From NCBI GenBank assembly GCA_964557535.1, contig CAZLAD010000001.1:58482-122481 (forward strand): a stretch of DNA of 64,000 nt, given 5' to 3'. Shown here in pieces: positions 2,484-39,979 of the stretch (position 1 is the first letter of the stretch; every line of letters begins with the position of its first letter). The position numbers and the translations under genes are program-made. The notes under the pieces are model-generated. The model searched no databases. It was not told the DNA's origin and was given only the letters and a program-made list of their open reading frames with translations. This stretch comes from an uncultured Candidatus Saccharibacteria bacterium. GTDB lineage: Bacteria > Patescibacteriota > Minisyncoccia > Phycocordibacterales > CSBR16-119.

Positions 2484-2600
2484 CCCGTTAGAGATAGCAA
2501 ACCTTAGTTTGCGTACCTTTGTTATTGTTTTGTAAATAATTTACGACCACGGCGATATTTCCATCAAGATTAATTGTAACCAAGTTATCTCTAACGGGAT
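2482..2600 (-). repeat. Intergenic IR-bounded element E1 (119 nt), reverse orientation, abutting the priA start codon
   Basis: Terminal inverted repeats ATCCCGTTAGAGAT (2482-2495) and ATCTCTAACGGGAT (2587-2600). Read on the minus strand it ends TACGCAAA-hairpin-TTTGCTATCTCTAACGGG followed directly by the priA ATG. Confidence 0.75.
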
Positions 2601-2661
2601 TCATGCCTTCATCATAGCATTTTGGAAATTCGACACGAAAAGGTAAGATAGACACGTAATT

Positions 2662-3981
2662 ATGAGTGACATATTCAAGATCAAGGGCGGGAAAAAACTA
2701 AAAGGCACCATTAGACCACAAGGCTCGAAAAACGAGGCTTTTCAGGTTATCGCCGCGACGCTTCTGACTGACGAAGACGTGGTTATTGAAAATATTCCAG
2801 AAGTTTTGGATATCTTGAATTTGTTCGAAATCCTAAAAATTTTGGGCGTCGAAATTACGAAGCTCGGTCACGGTTCTTACAAACTAAACGCAAGCGCCGT
2901 CGATGTCGAGAAAATGAAATCGGAAGAATTTTCAAAACTTTTCTCCAAACTTCGCGGATCACTTTTGGTTGCGGGTGCGATGCTTGGGCGATTTGGAAAA
3001 AGTGTCATTCAACAGCCAGGCGGAGACAAAATCGGAATTCGTCCAATCACAACTCACGTCAAAGCCTTTGCCGATATTGGTGCGGATGTAGAAACAAAAG
3101 GAGATTTTCAGGAACTTGTTTTGAAAAATATTGTTTCGAAAAGGATCACTTTGAGCGAAACTTCGGTTACTGGAACAGCCAACGCAATCCTCTCGGCTGT
3201 TTTGGAAAAAGAATCTCCGCATGTTTTGGAAATTTATAACGCCGGTTGCGAAACTTATATCCAGCAGCTTTGCAAAATGTTAAACAATATGGGCGCCAAG
3301 ATTTCTGGTGCAGGCACGAATCTTGTCGTTATCGAATCAGTCAAAAAACTACACGCTACAAATCACACTCTTTTGCCGGACATGCTCGAAATCGTCAGCT
3401 TGATCGTGCTTGGAGTTGTGTGTGGCGAAGGAATTTTTATAGAAGGTGCCAAGAGAGAACACATCGGCGAAATTACAAATATTGTTTTGAAGAAACTCGG
3501 TGTGCGTTTCGAAGAGCGAGAAGATGGATTTTTCGTTCCCGAACACAAAGAATATGAAATCCAAAAACCGAGAACTCCAGGAAAAAATATTCGTATCATT
3601 TATGATGACAAATGGCCGGGACTTTCGCCGGACCACATCAGTAGTCTGATTGTGCTTTGTGTTTATGCCAAGGGCATGGTGACTATTCGTCAACGCATGT
3701 TTGATCGACGACTTCTGTTCTGTGACGTTTTGAACACCATGGGCGCAGAAATTGTCATGTCGCATCATCAGGAAGTTACGGTTGTTGGGAATAATCGAAG
3801 TCGAACTTTGGTTGGTCTCGAGATGGCATCACCTGATATTCGCGCCGGCATGGCACTACTTATCGCCGCGCTTTCAGCCAAAGGCGAAAGTATTATCCAA
3901 AATGCGCATCAGATAAATCGTGGTTACGAACAAATCGTTGAGCGACTTCAAACTCTCGGCGCCGATATAGAATATGCCTAA
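2662..3981 (+). CDS. murA: UDP-N-acetylglucosamine 1-carboxyvinyltransferase (MurA), active-site Cys replaced by Asp
   Basis: Full-length MurA similarity (KGGKKLKGTIRPQGSKNEA...). The active-site loop reads QPGGDKIGIRP where E. coli has LPGGCAIGARP. Confidence 0.95.
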   Translation: MSDIFKIKGGKKLKGTIRPQGSKNEAFQVIAATLLTDEDVVIENIPEVLDILNLFEILKILGVEITKLGHGSYKLNASAVDVEKMKSEEFSKLFSKLRGSLLVAGAMLGRFGKSVIQQPGGDKIGIRPITTHVKAFADIGADVETKGDFQELVLKNIVSKRITLSETSVTGTANAILSAVLEKESPHVLEIYNAGCETYIQQLCKMLNNMGAKISGAGTNLVVIESVKKLHATNHTLLPDMLEIVSLIVLGVVCGEGIFIEGAKREHIGEITNIVLKKLGVRFEEREDGFFVPEHKEYEIQKPRTPGKNIRIIYDDKWPGLSPDHISSLIVLCVYAKGMVTIRQRMFDRRLLFCDVLNTMGAEIVMSHHQEVTVVGNNRSRTLVGLEMASPDIRAGMALLIAALSAKGESIIQNAHQINRGYEQIVERLQTLGADIEYA

Positions 3982-10740: not shown

Positions 10741-10749
10741 TGCTATACT
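10741..10749 (+). promoter_or_regulatory. Extended -10 (TGcTATACT) 9 nt upstream of the mreB ATG; leaderless-type promoter
   Basis: TGcTATACT at 10741-10749, ATG at 10759, and no Shine-Dalgarno. Confidence 0.55.
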
Positions 10750-10758
10750 CCATTCCAC

Positions 10759-11772
10759 ATGGCATTTTTTTCAAAGAAAATCGGAGTTGATTTAGGCACG
10801 GCCAATATTTTGGTCTATGTGCCGGGCAAGGGCGTCGTTTTGAACGAACCGTCGGTTGTGGCCGTGTCTGAACAAGACAACCGTATCCTCGCCATTGGTG
10901 ATGCCGCCAAACAAATGATTGGTAGAACGCCCGAAAATATCGTTGCGCATCGTCCGATGAAAGACGGCGTGATTGCCGACTATCGTATGACCGAGGCAAT
11001 GCTCAAATATTTCATCGGTCGGGCAATGGGAAGTTTCTCGCTTTGGAAACCAGACGTAATGGTGTCGGTGCCGGCTGGAGTTACTTCGACCGAACGTCGT
11101 GCTGTTGTCGAAGCGACCATGAAAGCTGGTGCTAGAAACGCATATATTGTAAAAGAACCAATTCTCGCCGCAATCGGCGCCGGAATTCCAATTTATGAGT
11201 CGCGTGGGCACATGATTGTCGACATCGGCGGAGGTACAACCGACGTGGCGGTGATATGCCTCGGCGGAATTGTCGCATGTACGTCGGTCAAAGTCGCTGG
11301 AGATAAAATTGATTCTGCGATTGCGGATTTTATCAAGAAAACTTTTAATCTCGCGATTGGTGATCGCACTGCCGAACAAGTGAAAATCAAAATTGGTTCA
11401 GCCGTTGTGATGGAAGAACCACTTCTCGCAACTATCAAAGGCCGGGATTTTGTCCAGGGACTTCCACGCACCGCGCAGGTGTCGACGAACGATATAGTGA
11501 AAGCAATTGATAAAGAACTCCGTGCCATCGTGCGTGCTATCAAAGATGTACTCCAAGAAACTCCGCCGGAACTTGCCTCTGACATCATCGATCAGGGTAT
11601 AATTCTGACAGGCGGATCATCTTTGCTTCGAAATCTTCCAGAACTCATCTATCAGAAAACTGGCGTGAAGGCGAGGCTTGCCGATGAACCGCTTTATTGT
11701 GTCGTGCGGGGAACGGGCGTCGCGCTTGATCACTTGGATACCTACAAACGTTCGATTATTTCTAAACGTTAA
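10759..11772 (+). CDS. mreB: Rod-shape-determining actin homolog MreB
   Basis: IGVDLGTANILVYV, DIGGGTTDVAVI and LTGGSSLLRNL actin-fold motifs. Confidence 0.93.
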   Translation: MAFFSKKIGVDLGTANILVYVPGKGVVLNEPSVVAVSEQDNRILAIGDAAKQMIGRTPENIVAHRPMKDGVIADYRMTEAMLKYFIGRAMGSFSLWKPDVMVSVPAGVTSTERRAVVEATMKAGARNAYIVKEPILAAIGAGIPIYESRGHMIVDIGGGTTDVAVICLGGIVACTSVKVAGDKIDSAIADFIKKTFNLAIGDRTAEQVKIKIGSAVVMEEPLLATIKGRDFVQGLPRTAQVSTNDIVKAIDKELRAIVRAIKDVLQETPPELASDIIDQGIILTGGSSLLRNLPELIYQKTGVKARLADEPLYCVVRGTGVALDHLDTYKRSIISKR

Positions 11773-13333: not shown

Positions 13334-13342
13334 TGCTACAAT
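13334..13342 (+). promoter_or_regulatory. Extended -10 TGcTACAAT 6 nt upstream of the frr ATG (leaderless)
   Basis: TGCTACAAT, then ttgccc, then ATG at 13349. Confidence 0.55.
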
Positions 13343-13348
13343 TTGCCC

Positions 13349-13903
13349 ATGCAATTTAATTTCAAACCTTTCGAAGACGCGGTCAAAAATACCAAAGATT
13401 GGCTTACCAAAGAATACGCCTCGCTTCATACCGGCGCTGCGAGTCCGATGGTTCTTGACGGTATCATGGTTGATTCTTATGGTACGCGTCAGCCGATCAA
13501 AAACGTCGCCTCGATTTCGATCGAAGACCCAAAAACTTTGCGTGTGATGCCGTGGGACAAGGGTCAGCTCAAAGAAATCGAAAAAGAAATCATGACTTCG
13601 GACCTTGGACTTTCTGTTGTAATCGATGCCACCGGGCTTCGCGTGATTTTTCCCATGCTTACGACCGAGACCCGTGAAAAACTTGTTAAGGTTTTAAAAA
13701 CCAAACTCGAAGACGCGCGAGTAACTGTTCGCAAGGAGCGCGAAAACAATTTACGAGAAATTGATCGTATGGCGCGCGAAGGTGAAATGTCCGAGGACGA
13801 GAAAATCCGCGCCAAGGATCGTTTGCAGGGTATAGTCGATGAAGCCAATACCGATCTTGAAAAGATATTTTTAGCCAAAGAAGCCGTTGTAATGGGTAAA
13901 TAA
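13349..13903 (+). CDS. frr: Ribosome recycling factor
   Basis: Full-length RRF similarity (…HTGAASPMVLDGIMVDSYG…TREKLVKVLKTKLEDARVTVRKERENNLREI…). The ORF track starts at a TTG at 13343. Confidence 0.9.
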   Translation: MQFNFKPFEDAVKNTKDWLTKEYASLHTGAASPMVLDGIMVDSYGTRQPIKNVASISIEDPKTLRVMPWDKGQLKEIEKEIMTSDLGLSVVIDATGLRVIFPMLTTETREKLVKVLKTKLEDARVTVRKERENNLREIDRMAREGEMSEDEKIRAKDRLQGIVDEANTDLEKIFLAKEAVVMGK

Positions 13904-15011: not shown

Positions 15012-15127
15012 CCCAAATCTCTGGGGTTGACAGGTATTTGACATTAATTTGCTTTAATGATAGTATACAAACTACAAAGATTTTGAATTTAAAAAGAATA
15101 AATTATTAGCAATTTAAAGGTATATTT

Positions 15128-16165
15128 ATGGCAATTATTTCCTTCAGACCAAAACAAGTTAGTAAGAAGCTTTTGTCCTCCCTCAAGGACCGTTCTTTTG
15201 ATGTCATTGCGAACCGCTATGGTCTCACGGATGATGCCGAAAGAAAGACTCTAGAGGCTATTGGACAGAAGTACGGAATTACCCGCGAACGTGTTCGACA
15301 GATTGAAAATACCGCTTTGGCCACGATTCGCAAGTCAAAGGAAATGTCCGAATCACAAGAGGTTTTTGATGAATTAAAAAATCTTTTACACTCTCTCGGT
15401 GCTATTGTGTCCGAAGAAGAGTTTTTGGAACATGTTTCGAAAGATAAATCGACACAAAACCACATCCATCTATATTTGGTTTTGGGTGATGAATTTGAGA
15501 AGTCTAAAGAAGATGACGATTTCAACGCGCGTTGGTCCTTAAATCACGAAATTGTCGAAAACGTTCACGAGGCTTTGCGTAAACTCTATGCATCTTTGGG
15601 TGACGACGAACTTCTTCCAGAATCGAAAATCGTAGAAAAATTCCTCAGTTTCATCAAGACTGTTTCTGAAGAGCATCGCGATGCTGAAATTGCTAAACGA
15701 TGGTTGCGATTATCAAAGAAGGTTGGCAAAAATCCTTTGAATGAATGGGGCAAGGCTGAATCTAAAAATGTCAAAACTCGCGGTGTCAAAGACTACACAT
15801 TCCTCGTGATGCGAAGACATGGTGAACCTATGCACTTCCGAGAAGTCGCCGAGGCCATCACAAAAACTTTCAACAGAAAGACTTTGGCTGCCACTACTCA
15901 TAACGAACTAATCAAAGACCCTCGTTTTGTTCTTGTTGGACGTGGACGATATGCGTTACGTGAATGGGGTTACAAACCAGGAATAGTGCGCGAAGTCATC
16001 GAAGGCATTATCCGAGAAAATGGTCCAATGACCAAAGACGAAATTGTCGACGCAGTTCTAAAAGAAAGATTTCTAAAAAGAAACACTATCCTCGTAAATC
16101 TCCATAACCCAAAATATTTCAAGAAACTCAAAGACGGACGATACGATAACGTTTCAAGTAAGTAA
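15128..16165 (+). CDS. Sigma-70 region-4 HTH fused to a C-terminal HARE-HTH winged helix; putative transcription factor
   Basis: The N-terminus LTDDAERKTLEAIGQKYGITRERVRQIENTALATIRK is an excellent sigma region 4.2 match. The C-terminus FREVAEAI...HNELIKDPRFVLVGRGRYALREWGY matches the HARE-HTH signature of the RNAP delta subunit. No sigma regions 2 or 3 are present. Confidence 0.6.
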   Translation: MAIISFRPKQVSKKLLSSLKDRSFDVIANRYGLTDDAERKTLEAIGQKYGITRERVRQIENTALATIRKSKEMSESQEVFDELKNLLHSLGAIVSEEEFLEHVSKDKSTQNHIHLYLVLGDEFEKSKEDDDFNARWSLNHEIVENVHEALRKLYASLGDDELLPESKIVEKFLSFIKTVSEEHRDAEIAKRWLRLSKKVGKNPLNEWGKAESKNVKTRGVKDYTFLVMRRHGEPMHFREVAEAITKTFNRKTLAATTHNELIKDPRFVLVGRGRYALREWGYKPGIVREVIEGIIRENGPMTKDEIVDAVLKERFLKRNTILVNLHNPKYFKKLKDGRYDNVSSK

Positions 16166-16265: not shown

Positions 16266-16274
16266 TGCTACAAT
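16266..16274 (+). promoter_or_regulatory. Extended -10 TGcTACAAT 6 nt upstream of the ATG at 16281 (leaderless)
   Basis: TGCTACAAT, then tattcc, then ATG. Confidence 0.5.
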
Positions 16275-16280
16275 TATTCC

Positions 16281-17528
16281 ATGGAATTTTTTGCAATGTT
16301 TTCTGAACCACTTTTACCGAAGGTTTTTTCTATGCTTACTAAAGCCCTACTTTATCTTTCTCCCATTATTTTAATTTTCGTGGGTTGGCATCTGTGGGTT
16401 AGACATCGAAATGCCGAATGGATATCTGAGCTTAAATGGGTATTACTTGAAATAAAAGTGCCCAAAGATATTTACAAAACTCCGCGTGCGATGGAGATAG
16501 CCCTTGGCAATGCATTGTCCCAGACCGGGGGCATAGGCACACGATACAAGAAATATTGGGAGGGTAGGGTACTTTTTTGGTTTTCTCTGGAGATAATTTC
16601 TATTGAAGGGGAAATTCGTTTTTTGATTCGAACTCCTAAAAATTTTCAAAACATAATTCAGTCACAAATTTATGCCCAATATCCTCAAGCAGAAATATTT
16701 GAGGTGCCGGATTATACTTTGGATGTTTTGCGTTCCATGCAGGAAGAAGAATGGGGTATGTGGGGTTGTGAACAACATCTTAAAAAACCCGATGCTTATC
16801 CAATAAGAACATATTCGGATTTTGGTTTGGATAAAGCCACCACCAAAATCGAAGAAGAGGCCGGACTTATAGATCCGATCGTCTCACAAATTGAATGGAT
16901 GGGAACAATGGGAAAGGGCGAGCATTTTTGGATGCAAATACTCGTTCGATCTACAAAAGATAGTTATATCAATCCTTATTCTCTCATACCTAAAACAGAA
17001 GACTGGAAAGACAAAGCCAAGAGGGAAATGGAAAAAATCAAAGCAAAATATGACGGCGCTGACGCGATAGATAAACTTGGCAAGGCTTTGAAAATGTCCA
17101 AAGCCGAACAAGAAGTAATAAATGCCATTGAACGAAGTCTAGACAAGCCAGCTTTTGACGTTGGAATCAGGACTTTGTATGTGGCCAAAAAAGATAATTT
17201 CCGCCCAGAACATATTGCTGGCCTGGTCGGGTTTATGAGACCATATGGTTCGAACAATTTAAATAGTTTTAAAATTGCCAATGAAACTGATTTTGACAAT
17301 CCGTGGGAAGATATATCTGGAGACGGTAAAATTGGCAAGAAACTAGATATGTTGAGAGCATATGTCGAACGAGGTTATTTTTATCCGCCTTTCAAGGGGC
17401 AATACTATGTTTTGACTGCCGAAGAATTGGCCACGATTTATCACTTTCCAGGACGAGTATCCACGACTCCGACATTCAAACGCATCGAGTCTAAAAAGTC
17501 CGAACCGCCAGTCAATTTACCGCTTTAA
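16281..17528 (+). CDS. Hypothetical membrane-anchored protein (about 415 aa)
   Basis: N-terminal TM (ALLYLSPIILIFVGWHLWV) followed by a large soluble domain with a conserved-looking C-terminus (LTAEELATIYHFPG). No recognisable family. The start is chosen after the -10; the ORF track gives 16260. Confidence 0.55.
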   Translation: MEFFAMFSEPLLPKVFSMLTKALLYLSPIILIFVGWHLWVRHRNAEWISELKWVLLEIKVPKDIYKTPRAMEIALGNALSQTGGIGTRYKKYWEGRVLFWFSLEIISIEGEIRFLIRTPKNFQNIIQSQIYAQYPQAEIFEVPDYTLDVLRSMQEEEWGMWGCEQHLKKPDAYPIRTYSDFGLDKATTKIEEEAGLIDPIVSQIEWMGTMGKGEHFWMQILVRSTKDSYINPYSLIPKTEDWKDKAKREMEKIKAKYDGADAIDKLGKALKMSKAEQEVINAIERSLDKPAFDVGIRTLYVAKKDNFRPEHIAGLVGFMRPYGSNNLNSFKIANETDFDNPWEDISGDGKIGKKLDMLRAYVERGYFYPPFKGQYYVLTAEELATIYHFPGRVSTTPTFKRIESKKSEPPVNLPL

Positions 17529-19840: not shown

Positions 19841-19860
19841 TTGTTTTAGATTATCTTTAC

Positions 19861-20910
19861 ATGCATAAGTTCAAGACGGTATTTGTCGGTGTCTCGGGCG
19901 GAGTCGATAGCTCCGTTTCTTTGGCGTTGCTTAAAGAACAGGGGTTCAATGTCGTTGGGTGTTTTATCAAGACCTGGCAACCGGATTTTATAACTTGTAC
20001 TTGGCGTGAAGAACGTCGCGATGCCATGCGTGTCTGTGCTGCACTTGATGTGCCTTTTATAACTATTGATGCTGAAAAAGAATACAAAGAGTTGGTGGGG
20101 GAATATTTTATAAATGAATACCGCGCCGGTCGCACGCCAAATCCAGACGTAATGTGCAACAAAGAAATAAAATTCGGAGTATTTTTAAAATACGCCCTGG
20201 CACATGGAGCTGACTTTGTGGCAACGGGCCATTATGCAATTTCTAAAGAAGGCCAACTTTTTGCTGGCATAGATAAAACGAAAGACCAGAGTTACTTTTT
20301 GTGGACTTTAAAAAAAGATCAAATAGAAAAAATAATTTTCCCAGTTGGGAATTTACAAAAATCCGAAGTTCGAAAATTGGCCGACAAATATAACTTACCG
20401 ACCGCGACAAAAAAAGATTCTCAGGGCGTGTGTTTCCTTGGGCCAATCGATATGAAAGAATTTTTGGCACATTATATCCCGAAAAAAGTTGGCGACGTCT
20501 TAAATATCTCGGGCGAAGTTATCGGAACTCACGACGGAGCGCTCTTTTTCACACTGGGCGAACGCCACGGATTTACGATTACGAAAAAGGGAAATGATGA
20601 CGAGCGACTGTATGTTGTTGATCGGGACTTGAACAAAAACACGATTACGGTTTCAAGCAATACGATTAGAGGTCGGACCTCTAATCGTGGAGAGAAAATA
20701 AAAATCGAAAATATAAATTGGATTTCGGGTGTTGGGCCGGAGCCGACCAAGAAACTTGGGGCCCGGATTCGCTATCAGCAACCGTTACAATCATGTCGAA
20801 TCGAAAACGACGTCGTGATTTTTGACGAGCCGCAAATTGCTGTTAGTTCAGGACAGTCAATCGTCATATACGACGATGAAAAAGTTCTCGGAGGAGGAAT
20901 TATTGCTTAA
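19861..20910 (+). CDS. mnmA: tRNA-specific 2-thiouridylase MnmA
   Basis: PP-loop VGVSGGVDSSV, catalytic Cys region and a C-terminal barrel. The start is chosen at MHKFKTV; the ORF track gives 19825. Confidence 0.9.
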   Translation: MHKFKTVFVGVSGGVDSSVSLALLKEQGFNVVGCFIKTWQPDFITCTWREERRDAMRVCAALDVPFITIDAEKEYKELVGEYFINEYRAGRTPNPDVMCNKEIKFGVFLKYALAHGADFVATGHYAISKEGQLFAGIDKTKDQSYFLWTLKKDQIEKIIFPVGNLQKSEVRKLADKYNLPTATKKDSQGVCFLGPIDMKEFLAHYIPKKVGDVLNISGEVIGTHDGALFFTLGERHGFTITKKGNDDERLYVVDRDLNKNTITVSSNTIRGRTSNRGEKIKIENINWISGVGPEPTKKLGARIRYQQPLQSCRIENDVVIFDEPQIAVSSGQSIVIYDDEKVLGGGIIA

Positions 20911-21436: not shown

Positions 21437-21442
21437 TATACT
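21437..21442 (+). promoter_or_regulatory. -10 TATACT 7 nt upstream of the alaS ATG (leaderless)
   Basis: gcTATACT, then ttcactc, then ATG at 21450. Confidence 0.45.
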
Positions 21443-21449
21443 TTCACTC

Positions 21450-23168
21450 ATGACAAGCAACGAAATTCGCAATAGATTTCTAAAATTCTTTGAATCAAAA
21501 GGCCACACAATTTTGCCTTCGGCTTCTCTTGTGCCTCAGGGCGATTCCTCGGTCCTATTTACGACGGCTGGTATGCAACCACTCGTGCCGTATCTTTTGG
21601 GTGAGAAGCATCCCGGTGGAACACGTTTGGCAAGTGTCCAGAAATGTTTGCGCACGGGCGACATCGACGACATAGGAGACAATCGTCACCTAACATTTTT
21701 TGAAATGCTCGGGAACTGGTCATTGGGAGACTATTTCAAAGATGAATCAATTGCTTGGAGTTATGAATTTTTGACGGACAAGAATGTTGGACTCGGGCTT
21801 GATCCGACGCGGCTTTATATCACATGTTTTGAGGGTGATGCCAATGCGCCTCGCGATCTCGAATCTGCTGAACTTTGGAAGAAATCTGGAATTCCCGAAT
21901 CGCGAATCTATTTTTTGGGTAAAGAAGATAACTGGTGGGGACCGGGTGACAATGGCCCGTGTGGACCGGATACGGAAATCTTTTACGATGTCACTGGAAA
22001 ATGCGGGGAACTTTCGCATGAAGAATTTTTACGTGCTCAAAAAGAAGAAAAGGTGATCGAGATCTGGAACAACGTTTTCATGGAATATCGATCCGAGAAC
22101 GGCAAAGTCGTCGGCAAACTCGAACAGAAAAATGTCGACACCGGAATGGGATTGGAACGCATTACGGCGGTGGTAAATGGACTGGATAATGTTTACGAAA
22201 CAGATCTTTTCTTCGGAGAAAAAACCAAAGAAGAAAGAATTGTTGTTGATCACGTCAAAGCCGCACTTTTCTTGATTACTGACGGAATTTTGCCAGGAAA
22301 TACCGGTCAAGGCTACATCTTGCGTCGTTTGATTCGTCGGGCTGCCCGATTTTCCAAAGAACAACTCACAGAAATGATTACTAAAGTAAAAGAAATCTAT
22401 AAAGGAATTTACGATTTGGATGACAAAGGTGAAATCACTAAAGAAGAAGTTAAATTCCGCGAAACTCTGGAAAAAGGTTTGAAAGAATTTGAAAAAGGAA
22501 CTGATCCTTTTGTTTTGTTTACGACATACGGTTTTCCAATTGAATTGACGGACGAACTTGCAAAGGAGAAAGGTAGAATAATTGATCATAAAGACTTTTA
22601 TATAAAAATGAAGAACCACCAACAACTCTCCCAAACCTCGTCTGCTGGAATGTTCAAGGGAGGTCTAGCGAACCACAACGAAGCGACGATCAAACTCCAC
22701 ACTGCGCACCATTTGCTACTCGCAGCACTACAGAGTATCCTTGGTCCTGAGGTTAAACAGCGGGGAAGTAACATCACCGAAGAACGTCTGCGCATCGATT
22801 TCTCTTTTGATCGTAAAATGACTGATGAAGAAAAAGCTCGTGTCGAAAATATTGTAAACGACGCTATCCAAAAAGATTACAAAGTCGTCAGACGCGAAAT
22901 GACGAAAGATGAAGCGGAAAAAATTGGCGCCCAGATGGAATTTGGCGCGAAGTATGGTGACATGGTCTCGGTTTATTTTATTGGCGGGGAAAGGTCGGAC
23001 CTTAAAGACGTCAAAGGTCCGATCTTGAGGAGCCAAGAAAATCCTTTCAGTATCGAATTCTGCGGTGGGCCTCATGTGGAACACACGGGTCTTCTGGGTA
23101 AATTTAAAATTCAAAAAGAAGAAGCTTCTTCGGCCGGCGTTCGAAGAATAAAAGCAATTTTGGAGTAA
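21450..23168 (+). CDS. alaS: Alanyl-tRNA synthetase, short form lacking the C-terminal C-Ala domain
   Basis: Class II catalytic core (FTTAGMQP, GNWSLGDYFK), an editing domain with HxxxH...CxxxH (HTAHHLL...CGGPHV), and about 570 aa against about 870 for the canonical enzyme. The start follows the -10; the ORF track gives 21345. Confidence 0.9.
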   Translation: MTSNEIRNRFLKFFESKGHTILPSASLVPQGDSSVLFTTAGMQPLVPYLLGEKHPGGTRLASVQKCLRTGDIDDIGDNRHLTFFEMLGNWSLGDYFKDESIAWSYEFLTDKNVGLGLDPTRLYITCFEGDANAPRDLESAELWKKSGIPESRIYFLGKEDNWWGPGDNGPCGPDTEIFYDVTGKCGELSHEEFLRAQKEEKVIEIWNNVFMEYRSENGKVVGKLEQKNVDTGMGLERITAVVNGLDNVYETDLFFGEKTKEERIVVDHVKAALFLITDGILPGNTGQGYILRRLIRRAARFSKEQLTEMITKVKEIYKGIYDLDDKGEITKEEVKFRETLEKGLKEFEKGTDPFVLFTTYGFPIELTDELAKEKGRIIDHKDFYIKMKNHQQLSQTSSAGMFKGGLANHNEATIKLHTAHHLLLAALQSILGPEVKQRGSNITEERLRIDFSFDRKMTDEEKARVENIVNDAIQKDYKVVRREMTKDEAEKIGAQMEFGAKYGDMVSVYFIGGERSDLKDVKGPILRSQENPFSIEFCGGPHVEHTGLLGKFKIQKEEASSAGVRRIKAILE

Positions 23169-23176: not shown

Positions 23177-24358
23177 TTGTTTTCAAAATCTATTCTTGCT
23201 ACAATTAGACAATCTATGGGATTGTTTTCTAGTAAAATAGAAGAAGAATTTGTTGTTGTGCTAGACATTTTTTCCGGTGGAGTTTCTGGGGCGGTTGTTT
23301 TGAAAAATAGAAAAAAGTTACCACTTGTCTTGGCGACAAACACCAAAACTTTTCGCACTCGGGAGAAAATTTCACCCGACAGATTTTATCGAGAGATGAT
23401 CGAAGCAATCGATGGTGTTTGTTTGGCGTTGCAGAGCAAGACGAAGATAATACCAGCAAAAATTTATTGCATTTTATCTGTACCTTGGTCGCATGGCGAA
23501 ATCAAATCCGTTTATGTCGTGCGAGACAGAGAATTTTATTTCACTGATACTTTTGCAGAGAAAATCCTGAACGAAGAGATTTCTAAATTTCAGAAAAATA
23601 ATTCAAAGTATTCCAAAATCATTGACAAAAAAATAACAAAAATTTCTCTAAACGGCTATACCGTAAAATCTCCTCACGGACAAAAGACCAAAAGTGTTGA
23701 AATAGATTTTTTCTTGAGCGTGTCCCCAAACGCTGTCGTAGAAGCCATACAAGATAAAATCAACAAAACATTTAAATCAAAAATTTTGTTTACATCACAA
23801 ATGCTTTCTGATTATATTTTCGTCAGAAATTTTTTGCCGACAACAAAAGAATTTGCGGTTTTAAATGTTGGAGCGGAGGTTTCTGAAGTTTTGATTTCAA
23901 AAAACGAATTTTTGGTTGGCACAGCATTTTTTCCTTTTGGTACAAAAAGCATCTTACGTAAAATATCTGAGATTTTAAATAAAACCGAAGGAGAAACAGA
24001 ATCTTTGCTTCGTCTGCATGTAAGTGGCCTATTAGACGAAGATATTAGTGTCGATTTCAAAAAAGCACTAAATGTTGCTCTCGATATGTGGCAATCAGAG
24101 CTAAAACAAATATTTTTAGACATTTTGCCAAACAGACATATTCCACATCAGATATTTCTTCTCACAGATCGAGTAACTTCGGTGTGTTTGGGTGAAAGAT
24201 TTAATTTCCGGTTTTTTCCAGAATTCACAGCCGGAAGTATGGACTTTGATGTTATAATAAATGACACAAATACCCTGAGAGATTTCTATAACAAAACGGA
24301 GTACGTAACACCAGATCTAAATATTTTGATTAAAGCAATTTATATAAATCAAATTTAA
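23177..24358 (+). CDS. Hypothetical protein, possibly a divergent actin-fold ATPase (FtsA/PilM-like)
   Basis: VVVLDIFSGGVSGAVV resembles a phosphate-1 motif and LNVGAEVSEVLI...GTAFFPFGTKSI resembles a phosphate-2 or adenosine motif. The match is weak. Confidence 0.4.
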   Translation: MFSKSILATIRQSMGLFSSKIEEEFVVVLDIFSGGVSGAVVLKNRKKLPLVLATNTKTFRTREKISPDRFYREMIEAIDGVCLALQSKTKIIPAKIYCILSVPWSHGEIKSVYVVRDREFYFTDTFAEKILNEEISKFQKNNSKYSKIIDKKITKISLNGYTVKSPHGQKTKSVEIDFFLSVSPNAVVEAIQDKINKTFKSKILFTSQMLSDYIFVRNFLPTTKEFAVLNVGAEVSEVLISKNEFLVGTAFFPFGTKSILRKISEILNKTEGETESLLRLHVSGLLDEDISVDFKKALNVALDMWQSELKQIFLDILPNRHIPHQIFLLTDRVTSVCLGERFNFRFFPEFTAGSMDFDVIINDTNTLRDFYNKTEYVTPDLNILIKAIYINQI

Positions 24359-24359: not shown

Positions 24360-25685
24360 ATGAATCGTAACTATATTCACGACATCAAACCATCGTCACG
24401 AACACAAAAACGTCGCGAGGCTTTGGCGTTGGAGGAAAGTTTGCGTTTAAAGAAACTCTCAGGGGCGCGACCTCGTGCGCGTGTTGCCAAACATGAATAC
24501 GAAGACTACGGCATGCAAAAAGATTCTTCTGGTCGTGGTGTTTGGTATGTCGCCGGACTTGCGATTATAATTTTGGTTTTTGCGCTCACGTATGTTTTTG
24601 CTGGTGCGACCGTATATATAACTCCACGAGAAGGTTCTGTTGAGCTAACAGGGCCGTTACTTGCTGAAAAAGTACCTCAGGACGGTCTCGGATTTCAGAT
24701 GTTGGTTATCGAAGACACCGCTTCTGCGACAGTTGCCGCCTCGGGAACATCATATGTCGAGAAAAAGGCTACTGGTACTGTTAGACTTTTTAATAATCAC
24801 AGCACTTCTCCACAAAAACTTTTAATCGACACGAGACTCGTGGCGCCAAATGGAAATATTTACAAAACCAAAGTCGCCACAACTATTCCAGGACAGAAAA
24901 TGGTTTCTGGTAAACTTACTCCTGGTACGGTGGATGTAGAGGTCTACGCCGACGAATCAGGAGAAAATTACAATGCCAAAGATTTAGATTTAAAAATACT
25001 TGGATTCAAAGGTGGTCCAAAATACGAAACCATTTATGCTCGCACGACGACCGAAATAAAAGGTGGTTTCAAGGGAGAATCTTCAAATATTTCTGAAGAA
25101 GAGTTAGAAAATCAAACAGAAGTTTTGCGAACACAACTCTCAAAATCTCTTATAGAGAAAGCGCGAGCACAGTTACCAGAAAGTTTTGTCATGTATGATA
25201 AAGTCACGGTAATTAATTTTGATGAACCAGCAATTTCGACATCACTTGATGGGTCTGGCGCAGAGATAAAACAGCGAGCTGTTATGAACGCGATTCTTTT
25301 CAAAGAATCAGATTTAACCAAAGCGCTCGTTTCTGGGGTTGTGGCTGATGACGACAAAGAAAAAGTCGCAGTTTCAAATATTCGAGATTTAAATATCGAA
25401 TTAGATCCGGCTTATAAGATTGGCGATCCGTCGACAATGCAGAGTATAAAAATCATCATAAATGACAAAGTAAACGTTGTTTGGCTGGTTGATTATGATG
25501 AATTAAAAACTGTACTTGCTGGAACAAAGAAAAGGGAATTTGAATCTAAAATGCTTCAATTTAAAAATATCGACAAGACAGAACTTAGTTTGAAACCATT
25601 TTGGAAGAGTCGTTTACCAGAAAAACTAAACGCGATAAATATAGTCAATACTTTGGACAAAGAATCCGCATTGACCAACGAATAA
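24360..25685 (+). CDS. Hypothetical membrane-anchored protein (441 aa)
   Basis: N-terminal basic segment, a single TM (VWYVAGLAIIILVFALTYVFAG), and a large extracytoplasmic domain. Immediately follows the previous gene. Confidence 0.5.
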   Translation: MNRNYIHDIKPSSRTQKRREALALEESLRLKKLSGARPRARVAKHEYEDYGMQKDSSGRGVWYVAGLAIIILVFALTYVFAGATVYITPREGSVELTGPLLAEKVPQDGLGFQMLVIEDTASATVAASGTSYVEKKATGTVRLFNNHSTSPQKLLIDTRLVAPNGNIYKTKVATTIPGQKMVSGKLTPGTVDVEVYADESGENYNAKDLDLKILGFKGGPKYETIYARTTTEIKGGFKGESSNISEEELENQTEVLRTQLSKSLIEKARAQLPESFVMYDKVTVINFDEPAISTSLDGSGAEIKQRAVMNAILFKESDLTKALVSGVVADDDKEKVAVSNIRDLNIELDPAYKIGDPSTMQSIKIIINDKVNVVWLVDYDELKTVLAGTKKREFESKMLQFKNIDKTELSLKPFWKSRLPEKLNAINIVNTLDKESALTNE

Positions 25686-25712
25686 TTTACTGATATTATT
25701 TGACCGCTGAAA

Positions 25713-25931
25713 ATGAGTGAAAATAATCAAGCGAAAATAATCACGGGTACTGTATTGGAATCACTTCCTAATACTACTTTTCGGGTTGAATCTGACGATG
25801 GTGCCAAAATTATTTTGGCATATTTGTCTGGTAAAATGCGCAAATTTAGGATCAAGATTATGATAGGTGACAGGGTCGAAGTTGTTACCGATGAGGCCCA
25901 AGAAAAGGGACGCATCTCAAGGAGGCTGTAA
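25713..25931 (+). CDS. infA: Translation initiation factor IF-1
   Basis: S1-like fold: IITGTVLESLPNTTFRVESDDGAKIILAYLSGKMRKFRIKIMIGDRVEV. Confidence 0.9.
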   Translation: MSENNQAKIITGTVLESLPNTTFRVESDDGAKIILAYLSGKMRKFRIKIMIGDRVEVVTDEAQEKGRISRRL

Positions 25932-28746: not shown

Positions 28747-28767
28747 AGCAATTGATAAAATCAAGCC

Positions 28768-29124
28768 ATGAGACATCATAACAAAAACCGAAAATTTGGA
28801 CGAAATAGAGCTCAGCGAGGAGCCCTTCTAAAGGGTTTGGCGGTTAACTTAATTCGTGCCGGACGTATCAAGACAACCGAAGCCAAGGCCAAGGAACTTC
28901 GTCCGTATATGGAGAAACTTGTTACTCGTGCAAACATCGGAACTCTCGCTTCCAAGAGAATTATAATTTCTCGTCTCATGAATCGTGCCAAAGAATCAAA
29001 AATGCTGATCGAGGAAATTGCCCCAAAGTTCAAAGGTGTCGCTGGTGGATATACTCGAGTGCTTAAATTACCACCACGAAAATCTGACGGAGCAAAGCTC
29101 GCCTTAATCGAATTTGTTAAATAA
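28768..29124 (+). CDS. rplQ: Ribosomal protein L17
   Basis: MRHHNKNRKFGRNRAQRGALLKGLAVNLI... Confidence 0.92.
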   Translation: MRHHNKNRKFGRNRAQRGALLKGLAVNLIRAGRIKTTEAKAKELRPYMEKLVTRANIGTLASKRIIISRLMNRAKESKMLIEEIAPKFKGVAGGYTRVLKLPPRKSDGAKLALIEFVK

Positions 29125-30773: not shown

Positions 30774-31298
30774 TTACATCCCAAAAGTTTCTCTGAGAGA
30801 CTTTTCGGTCACGGGGTCGATGTGTTGCGTGACGATGATCATGATTTCGTCAGCGAGATTCATGTCAGTTTTTATATTCATAAACAAATGTTCAAAAGGG
30901 TAGGGCGAGATCCACACAGAATTTTTCATACACAAAAATCCAGCTTTTTTGAGGATGTAGCGGATCGAGTCGCGCTCGCTTTTTCTCGATTCGGGGAAGT
31001 CCAGCATAACCATGCGCCAGTAGCCATCCCAGCGTGTATCGACGAGGCTGGTCGGAGTGCTAAGTTTGATATTTCGGAGTTTGTTTCGTCCCTCAGCTGT
31101 TAGACGTAGAAAAGACGACCGGTCGGTTGGGATTTCCTCTATAAGCCCGGATTCGGCCATGTTTTTGAGGCTTCGAGTTATGGCATATTTCTCGGCCGAA
31201 TCGCTTTCTAGGGCGAAAATTTCGCGGTTTATGGCCTTCTTGGAGCCCAATTTCTCGAGAATTTGCTTTTGGAGATTGGATTTTCTTGACATGCCCAA
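30774..31298 (-). CDS. PaaX-family winged-helix regulator-like protein (paralog 1), divergent from grpE
   Basis: C-terminal WDGYWRMVMLDFPESRKSERDSIRYILKKAGFLCMKNSVWISPYPFE matches the PaaX_C-type signature W..W..v.fD.pe....R..lr..L...GF..lq.SvW..P. It is paralogous to 35886..36455. Confidence 0.6.
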   Translation of the reverse strand: MGMSRKSNLQKQILEKLGSKKAINREIFALESDSAEKYAITRSLKNMAESGLIEEIPTDRSSFLRLTAEGRNKLRNIKLSTPTSLVDTRWDGYWRMVMLDFPESRKSERDSIRYILKKAGFLCMKNSVWISPYPFEHLFMNIKTDMNLADEIMIIVTQHIDPVTEKSLRETFGM

Positions 31299-31349
31299 AA
31301 TGTAGCATATAATACTTTAACTAGCAAGTTTTCCACGGTCGTGAAAAAC

Positions 31350-31377
31350 TTGTCAAAATTATAAAATTGATTATAAT
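31350..31377 (+). promoter_or_regulatory. grpE-dnaK operon promoter (TTGTCA-16-TATAAT), 6 nt from the ATG; leaderless
   Basis: TTGTCA at 31350-55 and TATAAT at 31372-77, with ATG at 31384. It is preceded by the palindromic motif CACGGTCGTG (31339-31348), which also occurs in element E7. Confidence 0.65.
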
Positions 31378-31383
31378 TGGCCC

Positions 31384-31926
31384 ATGAATGATGAATTAGA
31401 TAATGAAATAGAATTTACTGACGAGGACGGAGAATCGAGCCAAGCTGACAAGATCAAAAAGCTTCGGTCCGAACTCAAGGAGTCCAAAGACCAGTCGCAA
31501 AAGAATCTAGATGGCTGGCAACGCGCTCTCGCGGACTATGCGAACCTCCAGAAGACTTCGAACGAGCAGATGAAGGAACTCAAAAGTTATGTGCTCGAGG
31601 GTTTTGTCGAAGAACTTCTGCCTACGCTCGATGCGTTTGAGATGGCGATGAAGAACAAGGAGACGTGGGAATCAGTTTCAGAGAATTGGCGCAAGGGAAT
31701 CGAATACATTTACGAGCAACTTCGCGCGATTCTCACGAACAATGGAGTGACCGAAATTGGCGATACGAAAGAAAAGTTTAATCCAGAACACCATCACGCG
31801 ATCGAAGAAATTGAAACGAGCGATGCTTCTAAAGATCACACCATTTCCGAAGTTGTTCAGAAAGGTTACAAGTCGGCGAAGGGTGTCATCAGGCCAGCGA
31901 AAGTGAAAATATTTATTAAAAAATAA
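31384..31926 (+). CDS. grpE: Nucleotide exchange factor GrpE
   Basis: Acidic N-terminus, coiled coil, GrpE core (YANLQKTS...LPTLDAFEMA...FNPEHHHAI). Confidence 0.9.
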   Translation: MNDELDNEIEFTDEDGESSQADKIKKLRSELKESKDQSQKNLDGWQRALADYANLQKTSNEQMKELKSYVLEGFVEELLPTLDAFEMAMKNKETWESVSENWRKGIEYIYEQLRAILTNNGVTEIGDTKEKFNPEHHHAIEEIETSDASKDHTISEVVQKGYKSAKGVIRPAKVKIFIKK

Positions 31927-35825: not shown

Positions 35826-35885
35826 ACAAGAAACCCATATATCTATCGGTGGTTTATAATTTACATATGTTACACTTAGACCACC

Positions 35886-38468: not shown

Positions 38469-38474
38469 TTGTAA

Positions 38475-38480
38475 ATTATA
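38475..38480 (-). promoter_or_regulatory. -10 TATAAT 6 nt upstream of the cysS ATG (leaderless)
   Basis: Minus strand: gatgaTATAAT, then ttacaa, then ATG. Confidence 0.5.
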
Positions 38481-39926: not shown

Positions 39927-39979
39927 TTAAAAATTATAACACCCAAACTATGAAAAAACGTCAAAAATATGGGGAATTC

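What the first reader, a model, noticed from the sequence alone, without database searches (positions are those of the whole stretch)
10741..10761. Pervasive leaderless gene architecture: a -10 hexamer (often extended TGn) 6-9 nt upstream of the start codon, no Shine-Dalgarno
The same arrangement recurs at mreB (TGcTATACT-9-ATG), frr (TGcTACAAT-6-ATG at 13334-13351), the 16281 gene (TGcTACAAT-6-ATG), alaS (TATACT-7-ATG at 21437), grpE (TTGTCA-16-TATAAT-6-ATG), cysS (TATAAT-6-ATG, minus strand), rplU (TTGCAA-16-TAGAAT-9-ATG), trpS (TGcTAAAAT-6-ATG), the M23 peptidase (TGcTATACT-6-GTG at 59318), and the small ORFs at 46938, 47158 and 47642. First genes of transcription units therefore appear to be translated from 5'-terminal AUG/GUG. 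Internal operon genes are coupled by ATGA overlaps or occasional SD-like GGAGA (47359). The E-element right ends (TGcTATCTC-7-ATG) mimic this geometry with a weaker -10.
Basis: seen in the sequence. Interest (0 to 1): 0.6.

Follow-up and report, generated by a model that had tools for sequence, protein, structure and literature searches.

The report
Promoters abutting start codons, no Shine-Dalgarno
In this uncultured ultra-small bacterium (Candidate Phyla Radiation, Parcubacteria/Paceibacteria), about half of the transcription units have a promoter -10 box only 6-10 bases before the start codon. Ribosome-binding (Shine-Dalgarno) sites are essentially absent, so many messenger RNAs probably begin at or within 3-4 bases of the AUG; this gene layout is known from other bacteria but I found no report of it for this group.

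Summary
All twelve quoted sites exist as written. In an ORF-independent count, TGnTAnnnT sits exactly 6 nt before an ATG/GTG that opens at least 100 codons ten times; most other spacers score 0-2.

Of 37 curated unit-first genes, 14 have TAnnnT at spacer 6-7 (p=3e-8) and 19 at spacer 6-10. SD-like 4-mers occur before 4 of 60 genes called by the same method, against 49/70 in an E. coli control.

The organism is a CPR/Patescibacteria bacterium of the Parcubacteria (Paceibacteria). In 80 relatives (1.3 Mb), TAnnnT peaks at spacer 6 and 7 (90 and 63 of 568, background 23). These sites carry an extended -10 TG and a TTG 17 nt upstream, so they are sigma-70 promoters. SD-like motifs are at chance level (64/1181).

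Best reading: leaderless or near-leaderless mRNAs in an SD-free lineage. This is the known "group C" architecture in a new lineage, without SD even at internal genes. There are no TSS data, and the 16S anti-SD could not be read.

Corrections:
- About a quarter of units have SD-less leaders or no recognisable signal.
- mreB itself probably has a 2-3-nt leader.
- The "E-element" is a mobile MITE that inserts at start codons; its -10-like hexamer is not conserved across subfamilies.

The parts
10741..10761 (+). mreB: extended -10 TGCTATACT, 9-nt spacer, ATG at 10759. The predicted TSS is 2-3 nt before the AUG (near-leaderless).
   Evidence: At the orthologues, 55/77 have TAnnnT at N5-12 and 3/77 are SD-like.
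13334..13351 (+). frr: TGCTACAAT-N6-ATG. An intrinsic terminator at 13285-13310 lies just upstream.
   Evidence: The Pfam RRF match covers residues 19-182.
16266..16283 (+). DUF8128 gene: TGCTACAAT-N6-ATG (ATG at 16281).
   Evidence: An independent gene call on L001 uses the same start.
19847..19863 (+). mnmA: TAGATT-N8-ATG (ATG at 19861). A terminator at 19800-19824 lies upstream.
   Evidence: The independent gene call has the same start.
21437..21452 (+). alaS: TATACT-N7-ATG (ATG at 21450). A terminator at 21397-21414 lies upstream.
   Evidence: (the Pfam domain starts at residue 5).
23197..23218 (+). Hypothetical 380-aa gene: TGCTACAAT-N10-ATG (ATG at 23216).
28753..28770 (+). rplQ: internal promoter TGATAAAAT-N6-ATG, 21 nt after rpoA.
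31290..31307 (-). PaaX-like gene: TGCTACATT-N6-ATG (ATG at 31292), divergent from grpE.
31350..31386 (+). grpE: TTGTCA-N16-TATAAT-N6-ATG (ATG at 31384).
35868..35888 (+). Second PaaX-like gene: TGTTACACT-N9-ATG.
38466..38483 (-). cysS: TGATATAAT-N6-ATG.
39924..39941 (-). corA: TGTTATAAT-N6-ATG.
40124..40163 (+). rplU: TTGCAA-N16-TAGAAT-N9-ATG.
42996..43013 (-). dnaB: TGCTAAAAT-N6-ATG.
43342..43359 (+). trpS: TGCTAAAAT-N6-ATG. The Pfam domain starts at residue 5, and an in-frame stop lies one codon upstream.
46926..46940 (+). 49-codon basic ORF: TAGAAT-N6-ATG. Whether this is a real gene was not tested.
47143..47160 (+). 65-codon ORF: TGGTAAAAT-N6-ATG. Whether this is a real gene was not tested.
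47627..47644 (+). 177-aa gene: TGTTAAAAT-N6-ATG. The promoter lies inside the 3' end of the upstream gene (gap of 4 nt).
51027..51045 (+). scpA: TGTTAAAAT-N7-ATG.
55395..55413 (+). ftsW: TGCTAAAAT-N7-ATG.
59318..59335 (+). M23 peptidase: TGCTATACT-N6-GTG.
2622..2664 (+). murA: TTGGAA-N16-TAAGAT-N12-ATG. This gives a short SD-less leader of about 5 nt.
25671..25715 (+). infA: TTGACC-N17-TATTAT (with TGa)-N13-ATG. This gives a short SD-less leader of about 6-7 nt.
15038..15130 (+). Counter-example. The Sigma70_r4/HARE-HTH gene has a canonical promoter, TTGACA-N17-(TGa)TAGTAT. Its leader is about 55 nt, A/U-rich and SD-less, before the ATG at 15128.
2484..2598 (-). E-element copy (MITE, 115 nt, 14-nt terminal inverted repeats) abutting the ATG of the 578-aa gene. 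The old leaderless promoter TGCTATGAT-N6-ATGAAT survives at 2619-2599 beyond its other end.
49074..49151 (+). E-element copy abutting the aspS ATG. The flanks are ATACAAT / ATGCAAT.
51777..51875 (+). E-element copy abutting the scpB ATG. The flanks are ATGAAT / ATGAAT.
52423..52539 (+). E-element copy abutting the ATG of the D-Ala-D-Ala carboxypeptidase gene. The scpB stop codon lies inside its left repeat.
56524..56638 (+). E-element copy abutting the murG ATG.
60939..61056 (+). E-element copy abutting the ATG of a 109-aa gene. TGCTATTAT-N8-GTG survives on its far side.

Best explanation
The window comes from an uncultured Patescibacteria (CPR) bacterium of the Parcubacteria/Paceibacteria. 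In this lineage, sigma-70-type promoters sit directly against start codons. They are mostly extended -10 promoters (TGnTAnnnT) with a weak or absent -35.

With 6-7 nt between the -10 hexamer and the ATG, RNA polymerase should start at the A of the start codon. The mRNA then has no 5' UTR and is decoded from a 5'-terminal AUG (rarely GUG). With 8-10 nt the leader would be 1-4 nt. About 40% of transcription units in the window are of the first type and a further 15% or so of the second.

No gene class uses Shine-Dalgarno pairing. Internal genes appear to be served in three ways:
- stop/start overlap (ATGA, TAATG), that is, termination-reinitiation;
- their own internal -10-N6-ATG promoters;
- SD-independent initiation on A-rich, G-poor spacers.

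What is shown: motif identity, spacing, extended -10 and -35 signals, packing against terminators, conservation of the geometry across 80 relatives, and absence of SD motifs. What is inferred: the actual 5' ends, translation from the 5'-terminal AUG, and loss or disuse of the anti-SD.
For: Taxon:
- The closest MreB relatives (72-91% identity) are MAGs labelled Nomurabacteria, Taylorbacteria, Paceibacterota or Parcubacteria.

Spacing peak:
- Window: TGnTAnnnT-N6 before long ORFs occurs 10 times, against 0-2 at most other spacers.
- Window: 14/37 unit-first genes have TAnnnT at N6-7 (p=2.6e-8) and 19/37 at N6-10.
- Relatives (568 unit-first genes, starts chosen naively as the first start codon): TAnnnT at N6 = 90 (p=1e-27) and at N7 = 63 (p=2e-12), against a background of 23.
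- Relatives: TGnTAnnnT at N6 = 47 and at N7 = 24, against about 2.

Promoter identity:
- In the N6 subset the two bases before the hexamer's neighbour are T 62% and G 60%.
- TTG (49/56/33%) lies exactly 23 nt before the hexamer start, which is a 17-nt spacer.
- Position -1 is a pyrimidine in 75%, with A at +1.
- ATG is the start codon in 139/153, against 81% overall.

Other support:
- Terminators end 20-30 nt before the -10 at frr, mnmA and alaS.
- Start codons are well anchored. Pfam domains begin at residue 5 (TrpS, AlaS), 11 (DnaB) and 15 (CysS, GrpE). MreB tblastn alignments begin at residue 1 in 76/80 loci.
- mreB orthologues: 55/77 have TAnnnT at N5-12 (mode N6) and 3/77 are SD-like.
- SD-like 4-mers: window 4/60, relatives 64/1181, E. 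coli control 49/70.

Literature:
- A Pribnow box 6-8 nt from gene starts is the signature of leaderless 'group C' genomes (PMC6028130).
- The anti-SD CCTCCT is undetected in about half of Parcubacteria (PMC9297842).
Against: - No transcription-start data exist for this organism, so all 5' ends are predicted from promoter geometry.
- The 16S 3' end of this genome or of a close relative could not be obtained. No rRNA is present in the window or in the 80 relatives' loci.
- About a quarter of unit-first genes show no proximal -10. Several have clear promoters 20-55 nt upstream, so leadered, SD-less initiation also operates.
- Internal genes also show a smaller N6 peak (39/373). This must be read as internal promoters rather than as a translation signal.
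- Six genes sit behind E-elements, and their mode of expression is unexplained.
Confidence: 0.85

Rival explanations
1. The TAnnnT motif is a non-SD, AT-rich ribosome-binding or 'upstream signature' element on leadered mRNAs, as in Bacteroidota (GeneMarkS-2 group B). On this reading it is not a promoter.
For: Internal genes with gaps of 25 nt or less also show a TAnnnT peak at N6 (39/373, against a background of about 8). Upstream regions are generally A/T-rich and G-poor.
Against: - The aligned sites carry promoter-specific features that a ribosome would not need: TG at -15/-14 and TTG at a 17-nt spacer.
- The peak is stronger at unit-first genes: 27% at N6-7, against 14% at internal genes.
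- Terminators immediately upstream leave no room for a leadered transcript.
- The motif equals the sigma-70 consensus at the exact -10-to-TSS distance.
Confidence: 0.04
2. The promoters are real, but the dominant transcripts are leadered: read-through from upstream units or promoters further upstream. Translation then initiates internally without SD, on unstructured A-rich sites dependent on protein S1. The proximal -10 boxes would be secondary.
For: - Leadered SD-less units clearly exist in the same genome: 15128 with a leader of about 55 nt, rpmJ, rpmA, and several hold-out genes with -10 boxes 20-35 nt upstream.
- Genes behind E-elements must be translated after a structured insert of 78-118 nt.
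Against: - Strong terminators precede several of the promoters.
- The spacing distribution is sharply peaked at N6-7 rather than broad.
- Such exact spacing to the start codon has no selective reason if those transcripts were minor.
Confidence: 0.08
3. The pattern is a compositional or annotation artefact. TAnnnT would be common in AT-rich intergenic DNA, or the starts would have been chosen to fit the motif.
For: - Five window starts were moved downstream of the first start codon in the ORF (13349, 16281, 19861, 21450, 31292). A further one (23216) rests on the motif alone.
- TAnnnT occurs at about 3-4% of any upstream position.
Against: - The peak is also present with starts chosen blindly as the first start codon, and in a count that ignores my gene list.
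- Most of the moved starts agree with independent gene calls on L001 and with Pfam domain positions.
- The E. coli control gives 2/70.
Confidence: 0.02

Closest known systems
Bacterial genomes with frequent leaderless transcription (GeneMarkS-2 'group C': Actinobacteria such as Mycobacterium and Streptomyces, and Deinococcus-Thermus; PMC6028130)
   Same: A Pribnow-type -10 box lies 6-8 nt before the start codon of unit-first genes, and a strict ATG/GTG sits at the predicted 5' end. The share of units affected is 25-50%.
   Different: - Group C genomes keep SD sites for internal and leadered genes; here SD-like motifs are at chance level for all gene classes.
- The genome is moderate in GC (43%) rather than high-GC.
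- The promoters are mostly of the extended -10 type.
- The lineage (CPR Paceibacteria) is not among those named for group C.
Parcubacteria lacking the 16S anti-SD motif (Tsurumaki et al. 2022, RNA 28:1041; PMC9297842)
   Same: The major clade is the same. That paper found CCTCCT in only 48% of Parcubacteria 16S 3' ends and inferred that SD helices do not form. The absence of SD motifs upstream of genes here is the mRNA-side counterpart.
   Different: That study looked at rRNA and ribosomal proteins, not at gene starts or promoters. It proposed no alternative initiation mode. Whether this particular genome lacks the anti-SD could not be checked.
Extended -10 (TGn) promoters of sigma-70 family holoenzymes
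   Same: TG lies one base upstream of the -10 hexamer, and the -35 is weak or dispensable. In the window, 9 of the 11 N6 sites among unit-first genes carry TG, as do 60% of N6 sites in relatives.
   Different: Here the promoters are fused to start codons.
Correia-type bacterial MITEs (Neisseria). This comparison rests on my own knowledge, not on a search here.
   Same: The E-element is 76-118 nt long, with terminal inverted repeats and target-site duplication. It has many copies next to genes and folds into a long hairpin if transcribed.
   Different: - Every E-element copy abuts a start codon.
- The duplicated target begins with the ATG.
- There is no TA target.
- No conserved outward promoter was found.

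Membership tests
Leaderless-rich bacterial genome architecture (GeneMarkS-2 group C) | A -10 (Pribnow) motif localised about 6-8 nt upstream of the start codons of first genes in operons. | tested here: met
   Peak at N6-7 in the window (14/37; TGnTAnnnT 10 times at N6) and in 80 relatives (90 and 63 of 568, against a background of 23).
Leaderless-rich bacterial genome architecture (GeneMarkS-2 group C) | The motif is a promoter, not an RBS: it carries promoter-specific context and is stronger at unit-first genes. | tested here: met
   TG at -15/-14 (T 62%, G 60%) and TTG at a 17-nt spacer. First genes show 27% at N6-7, against 14% for internal genes. Terminators lie directly upstream.
Leaderless-rich bacterial genome architecture (GeneMarkS-2 group C) | Remaining genes (internal or leadered) use SD-type RBS sites (the dual model). 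| tested here: not met
   GGAG/GAGG/AGGA never exceeds 2-3% at any position. Counts are 64/1181 genes in relatives and 4/60 in the window, against 49/70 in E. coli.
Leaderless-rich bacterial genome architecture (GeneMarkS-2 group C) | Mapped transcription starts coincide with start codons. | not testable with these tools
   No TSS or metatranscriptome data are accessible for this uncultured organism.
Anti-SD-lacking Parcubacteria (PMC9297842) | Membership of Parcubacteria/Paceibacteria. | tested here: met
   The closest genomes by MreB (72-91%) are labelled Nomurabacteria, Taylorbacteria, Paceibacterota or Parcubacteria. uL13 is short (118 aa), as reported for Parcubacteria.
Anti-SD-lacking Parcubacteria (PMC9297842) | The 16S rRNA 3' end lacks CCUCC(U). 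| not testable with these tools
   No rRNA gene is present in the window or in the 80 relatives' loci.
Non-SD RBS genomes (group B, Bacteroidota-like) | The same AT-rich motif lies upstream of all genes, first and internal alike, on leadered mRNAs. | tested here: not met
   The motif has a sigma-70 -10/TG/-35 context and is enriched at unit-first genes.
MITE (for the E-element) | Short non-coding element with terminal inverted repeats, multiple copies, and target-site duplication shown by a filled versus an empty site. | tested here: met
   The terminal repeats are 14 nt, and there are 6 full copies plus 1 solo end in the window. L005 frr is the filled site (ATGCAAT|element|ATGCAAT), and window frr is the empty site (ATGCAAT). 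No autonomous partner was looked for.

The most novel reading that the evidence does not exclude
This Paceibacteria lineage may have abandoned SD/anti-SD pairing for all genes and rely on 5'-end-dependent (leaderless) initiation as its main entry route.

On top of this, a family of MITEs (E-elements) integrates specifically at start codons and duplicates 6-7 bp that begin with the ATG. Essential genes (frr, aspS, murG, scpB) stay functional behind a hairpin of up to 118 nt.

That would imply a so-far undescribed way of presenting the AUG. One option is that the terminal-repeat stem brings the old leaderless 5' end next to the real AUG, a shunt-like mechanism. Another is that processing of the stem creates a new 5'-terminal AUG. 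It would also imply that the transposition machinery recognises leaderless start sites.
Probability: 0.2. Interest if true: 0.8.

Novelty: new member of a known kind. Interest (0 to 1): 0.5.

Why it matters
CPR/Patescibacteria make up a large share of bacterial diversity, and their ribosomes are known to be reduced. About half of Parcubacteria 16S genes reportedly lack the anti-SD, but how these cells select start codons has not been addressed in the papers I could search.

These data give a concrete, testable answer for one lineage and about 80 relatives. Promoters are fused to start codons (leaderless mRNAs), and initiation or coupling elsewhere is SD-free.

In practice, gene callers that reward SD sites will misplace starts in these genomes. 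Several first-start-codon calls here were wrong by 2-36 codons. A -10-N6-ATG model would improve annotation and small-ORF discovery.

The start-codon-targeting MITE is a natural perturbation of this architecture and deserves its own study.

Tried and rejected
1. Reading the 16S 3' end failed. There were no Rfam or tRNA hits in the window. No 16S/23S signature motifs were found in the window or the 80 relatives' loci. Walking out of the window with exact-protein look-ups gave 20 kb more of the same genome but no rRNA. Two other look-ups found nothing.

2. I tried to place the genome in the uL1-lacking Parcubacteria subgroup by locating the L11 gene. No L11 motif was found in any locus.

3. I tested whether the E-element encodes an upstream ORF coupled to the gene. 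One copy has an intact 38-codon leaderless ORF ending 4 nt before the gene's ATG. The other copies have stops or no ATG, so this was rejected as a general feature.

4. I tested whether the E-element's right end is a conserved outward promoter. TGCTATCTC occurs only in the window's subfamily. The L005, L014, L055 and L073 subfamilies have CTGCTTCTAACGGG, TTTCGTACGGG or ATTTCTAACGGG, with no -10-like hexamer. This is not supported as a general property.

5. I looked for an alternative C-rich 'new SD' (AAACCCC, AACC) in the leaders of genes lacking a proximal -10. A/C-rich 4-mers are enriched 2.5-3-fold near starts but show no positional peak. This is probably unstructured-leader composition rather than a pairing site.

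6. Literature searches on leaderless or Shine-Dalgarno combined with Patescibacteria, CPR or Parcubacteria found no paper describing leaderless architecture in CPR. The TM7x TSS paper (PMID 35975994) is not held.
Full report
**1. What is at the coordinates**

Window 10741-10761 reads TGCTATACT-CCATTCCAC-ATG. This is an extended -10 promoter element (TGn + TATACT), nine bases, and then the ATG of a 337-aa MreB (Pfam MreB_Mbl).

With the last T of the hexamer at -7, the mreB transcript should start at 10756-10757. That gives a 2-3-nt leader, so mreB is near-leaderless rather than strictly leaderless.

**2. Which organism**

The window has 43% GC and no tRNA or Rfam hit. The identical MreB is found only on metagenome contigs.

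A scan of one genome per species returned 80 loci with 72-91% MreB identity. All are metagenome-assembled or uncultured-bacterium genomes, and those carrying a taxon label are called Nomurabacteria, Taylorbacteria, Zambryskibacteria, Paceibacterota, Parcubacteria or Patescibacteria. The 'Saccharibacteria' titles of one submitter sit among these.

The gene content is that of a small CPR genome:
- murA-F, mreB, frr, an M50 protease, alaS and infA;
- rpsM-rpsK-rpsD-rpoA-rplQ-rplM-rpsI;
- grpE-dnaK-dnaJ, cysS, corA, rplU, dnaB-recR and trpS;
- a DEAD helicase, aspS, scpAB, ftsW, murG and gltX.

uL13 is short (118 aa), as reported for Parcubacteria.

**3. Is the pattern more than chance in the window?**

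I used three counts of increasing independence from my own judgement.

(a) Curated list. Of 37 unit-first starts, 14 have TAnnnT with a 6-7-nt spacer. The per-position background is 3.2%, giving binomial p=2.6e-8. Nineteen have it at 6-10 nt (p=2.8e-7). TGnTAnnnT occurs 9 times at N6, twice at N7, twice at N9 and once at N10.

(b) Naive starts. Taking the first ATG/GTG/TTG of each called ORF, 7 of 30 unit-first genes have TAnnnT at N6 and 3 at N7.

(c) No gene list at all. Among all ATG/GTG codons that open at least 100 codons on either strand, TGnTAnnnT precedes them with spacer 6 ten times, spacer 7 three times and spacer 9 twice. Most other spacers from 0 to 30 score 0-2.

- corA, dnaB, a PaaX-like gene (31292, minus strand), rplQ and the 47642 gene at N6;
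- scpA and ftsW at N7;
- mnmA (ATG 19861) at N8;
- 35886 at N9 and 23216 at N10.

**4. Are the start codons right?**

- For many of these genes the stop-to-stop frame opens only a few codons upstream of the ATG.
- Pfam domains begin at residue 5 (TrpS, AlaS), 11 (DnaB) and 15 (CysS, GrpE).
- Independent gene calls on the identical contig L001 give the same starts for frr, the 16281 gene, mnmA and alaS.
- MreB tblastn alignments start at residue 1 in 76 of 80 relatives, and the codon there is ATG (GTG once) in all but two.

**5. Is it a promoter?**

I used the 80 relatives (1.3 Mb, GC 28-60%) with a simple self-trained ORF caller. Starts were fixed blindly at the first start codon.

Among 568 unit-first genes, TAnnnT occurs 90 times at N6 (p=1e-27) and 63 times at N7 (p=2e-12). 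It occurs 40 times at N8 and 38 at N9. The background is 23 with sd 6.5. TGnTAnnnT occurs 47 and 24 times at N6 and N7, against about 2.

Aligning the 90 N6 cases on the hexamer gives T 62% and G 60% at the extended -10 positions. TTG (49/56/33%) lies 23-21 nt before the hexamer, which is a -35 element at the canonical 17-nt spacing. The base at -1 is a pyrimidine in 75%, with A at +1, which fits the usual preference at transcription starts. The start codon is ATG in 139 of 153 N6/N7 cases, against 81% overall.

These features belong to sigma-70 promoters, not to ribosome-binding sites.

In the window, strong intrinsic terminators end 20-30 nt before the -10 of frr (13285-13310), mnmA (19800-19824) and alaS (21397-21414). 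A transcript that includes the gene must therefore start in the short stretch between terminator and ATG.

At the orthologous mreB start the upstream sequence is not conserved, but the geometry is. Of 77 orthologues, 55 have TAnnnT at N5-12 with the mode at N6 (18), and only 3 have an SD-like 4-mer.

**6. No Shine-Dalgarno**

GGAG, GAGG or AGGA at -17..-5 occur as follows:

| Gene set | SD-like |
|---|---|
| Window, auto-called genes | 4/60 |
| Relatives | 64/1181 (5.4%) |
| E. coli K-12 control, scored identically | 49/70 |

- A wider -20..-3 scan of the 66 curated window genes finds 6.
- No upstream position exceeds 2-3% in either gene class.
- TAnnnT at N6-8 occurs in 2/70 E. coli genes.
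- Upstream regions of internal genes are A-rich (40-48%) and G-poor (8-15%).

The SD-like GGGAGA before 47359 exists, but such hits are at about the number expected by chance.

A high-GC island holds a gene at 12724-13215. It has a perfect TTGACA-N16-TATAAT promoter (12639-12666), a leader of about 50 nt and a GAGG 10 nt before the ATG. It looks foreign.

**7. How general within the genome**

Exact-protein look-ups gave about 20 kb of the same genome outside the window (L085, L087).

These contain further -10-proximal starts:
- S41 peptidase, TGtTAAAAT-N6;
- PdaC-like gene, TGcTAGAAT-N6;
- TP_methylase, N7;
- a pyridine-nucleotide oxidoreductase, N7;
- ECF sigma, TTGTCA/TATAAT-N8;
- ftsZ, N9.

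They also contain units whose best -10 lies 20-35 nt upstream, with A/C-rich, SD-less leaders.

In the window, some genes are leadered or short-leadered:
- the Sigma70_r4/HARE-HTH gene (15128) has a canonical promoter and a leader of about 55 nt;
- rpmJ (26150-26266, unannotated in my ORF list) has -10-like hexamers (TAGTAT/TATATA) about 60 nt upstream, suggesting a leader of about 55 nt;
- infA has a 13-nt spacer and murA a 12-nt spacer.

The picture is mixed:

| Class of unit-first gene | Share |
|---|---|
| Strictly leaderless geometry (N6-7) | about 40% |
| 1-4-nt leaders (N8-10) | about 15% |
| Behind E-elements | about 15% |
| Longer SD-less leaders or no recognisable signal | the remainder |

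**8. Internal genes**

- Of the roughly 30 closely spaced same-strand pairs in the window, about a dozen overlap. These include four ATGA, one TTGA, one TAATG, and overlaps of 8-20 nt.
- The others are 1-31 nt apart.
- In the relatives, 153 of 899 same-strand pairs overlap, and 150 are 0-10 nt apart.
- Some internal genes have their own -10-N6-ATG promoter inside the preceding gene (rplQ, the 47642 gene). The relatives' internal set shows a smaller N6 peak with TG.

So coupling by overlap is part of the answer but not all of it.

**9. The E-element**

The motif before six window genes is the end of an element of 78-118 nt with 14-nt terminal inverted repeats (CCCGTTAGAGAT...ATCTCTAACGGG). There are six full copies and one solo end, with 15 motif matches against 1.8 expected.

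It is mobile. In the closest relative (L005), frr is preceded by TGCTAGAAT-N10-ATGCAAT|element (114 nt)|ATGCAATTC. The window has the empty site TGCTACAAT-N6-ATGCAATTT. The insertion therefore duplicated 7 bp beginning at the start codon.

A more distant relative (L014) carries a different subfamily (76 nt, CCCGTACGAAAT) at the same ATGCAAT of frr.

Across all loci I found 15 distinct insertions. Every one has an end abutting the ATG of an ORF of at least 109 codons. The flanks are direct repeats of 6-7 bp starting with ATG. They are perfect in four cases and differ by one base in most of the others. An alternative parsing, in which the element ends in AT and the duplication is 2-3 bp, fits equally well.

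In four cases the old -10 box survives beyond the far end of the element. The clearest is TGCTATGAT-N6-ATGAAT at 2619-2599. This is independent evidence that the pre-insertion sites were leaderless starts.

The genes concerned are housekeeping genes (aspS, scpB, a D-Ala-D-Ala carboxypeptidase, murG, and frr in L005).

This cannot be excluded for this subfamily. However, the hexamer lacks the T at -7, two of the six copies lack the TG, and other subfamilies have nothing -10-like there.

If transcribed from the old promoter, the element folds into a long terminal-repeat stem that ends at the AU of the AUG (z = -3.8 and -7.0). How these genes are expressed is unexplained.

**10. Comparison with what is known**

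A Pribnow box 6-8 nt from gene starts is the defining signal of GeneMarkS-2 'group C' genomes. These are 90% of Actinobacteria and 97% of Deinococcus-Thermus, with 25-50% of transcripts leaderless (PMC6028130). The present case works like that.

It differs in three respects. SD sites are missing for the remaining genes as well, the promoters are mostly extended -10, and the lineage is CPR.

Tsurumaki et al. (PMC9297842) found the anti-SD motif in only 48% of Parcubacteria 16S genes. They inferred that SD helices do not form, without examining gene starts. The data here supply the matching mRNA-side picture.

Full-text searches combining leaderless or Shine-Dalgarno with Patescibacteria, CPR or Parcubacteria found no description of leaderless architecture in this group. 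The library does not cover most subscription journals, so this is not proof of absence.

**11. Verdict**

It is a new member, and arguably a more extreme one, of a known kind of gene organisation.

It is of moderate interest on its own. Interest would be higher if the link to anti-SD loss and the start-codon-targeting MITE hold up.

The main missing pieces are experimental 5' ends and the 16S 3' end.

Noticed in passing
window 2484-2598, 49074-49151, 51777-51875, 52423-52539, 56524-56638, 60939-61056, solo end 44446-44459; L005 13223-13336, 11024-11138, 18545-18658; L014 11749-11824; L055, L073, L034: The E-element is a mobile MITE (76-118 nt, 14-nt terminal inverted repeats). In all 15 distinct insertions found, one end abuts a gene's ATG. 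It duplicates 6-7 bp starting with that ATG. The filled site is L005 frr and the empty site is window frr. A different subfamily occupies the same frr site in L014. How genes behind it are expressed is unexplained.
   Followed up: partly
window 2599-2619 (minus strand); 60918-60938; 49050-49073; L005 13198-13222: Old -10 boxes (TGCTATGAT-N6-ATGAAT, TGCTATTAT-N8-GTG, TAGAAT-N7-ATACAAT, TGCTAGAAT-N10-ATGCAAT) survive on the far side of E-elements. In two copies the duplicated upstream ATG has become ATA.
   Followed up: partly
window 12639-13215: A high-GC island holds a 163-aa gene with no Pfam match (12724-13215). It has a perfect TTGACA-N16-TATAAT promoter (12639-12666), a leader of about 50 nt and GAGG 10 nt before the ATG. 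This is unlike the rest of the window and may be horizontally acquired.
   Followed up: no
window 12476-12513 and 12547-12584: Two long AT-rich palindromes lie in the 900-nt gap between holB and frr. One has 19-nt arms at 89% complementarity. The other has 17-nt arms at 100% complementarity, separated by 4 nt.
   Followed up: no
window 25951-26054: An inverted repeat with 18-nt arms (94% complementary), 68 nt apart, lies between infA and rpmJ (GCCCACACACCAAGTTAA...TTAACTTGGTGTGAGGGC). It may be a second MITE family or a structured leader of the rpmJ-rpsM operon.
   Followed up: no
window 26150-26266: An unlisted 38-codon rpmJ (L36) gene, [40 protein letters not shown]. It is preceded by an SD-less leader.
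   Followed up: partly
window 30774-31292 (minus strand) and 35886-36455: Two paralogous PaaX_M (Cas2-like domain) proteins flank the grpE-dnaK-dnaJ operon. Both have -10-proximal starts. They may be regulators of the chaperone operon.
   Followed up: no
window 691, 19117, 20971, 48946, 63765; L085 6331, 9125; L087 872, 9333: Genes without a proximal -10 tend to have A/C-rich, G-poor leaders (for example aaaaacccccaacgatcATG and aaccaaaccgaaccaacactcATG). A/C-rich 4-mers are enriched 2.5-3-fold near starts in relatives, but without a positional peak.
   Followed up: partly
window 15128-16165: A 345-aa protein combines Sigma70 region 4 with a HARE-HTH domain. It is expressed from one of the few canonical leadered promoters in the window.
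   Followed up: no
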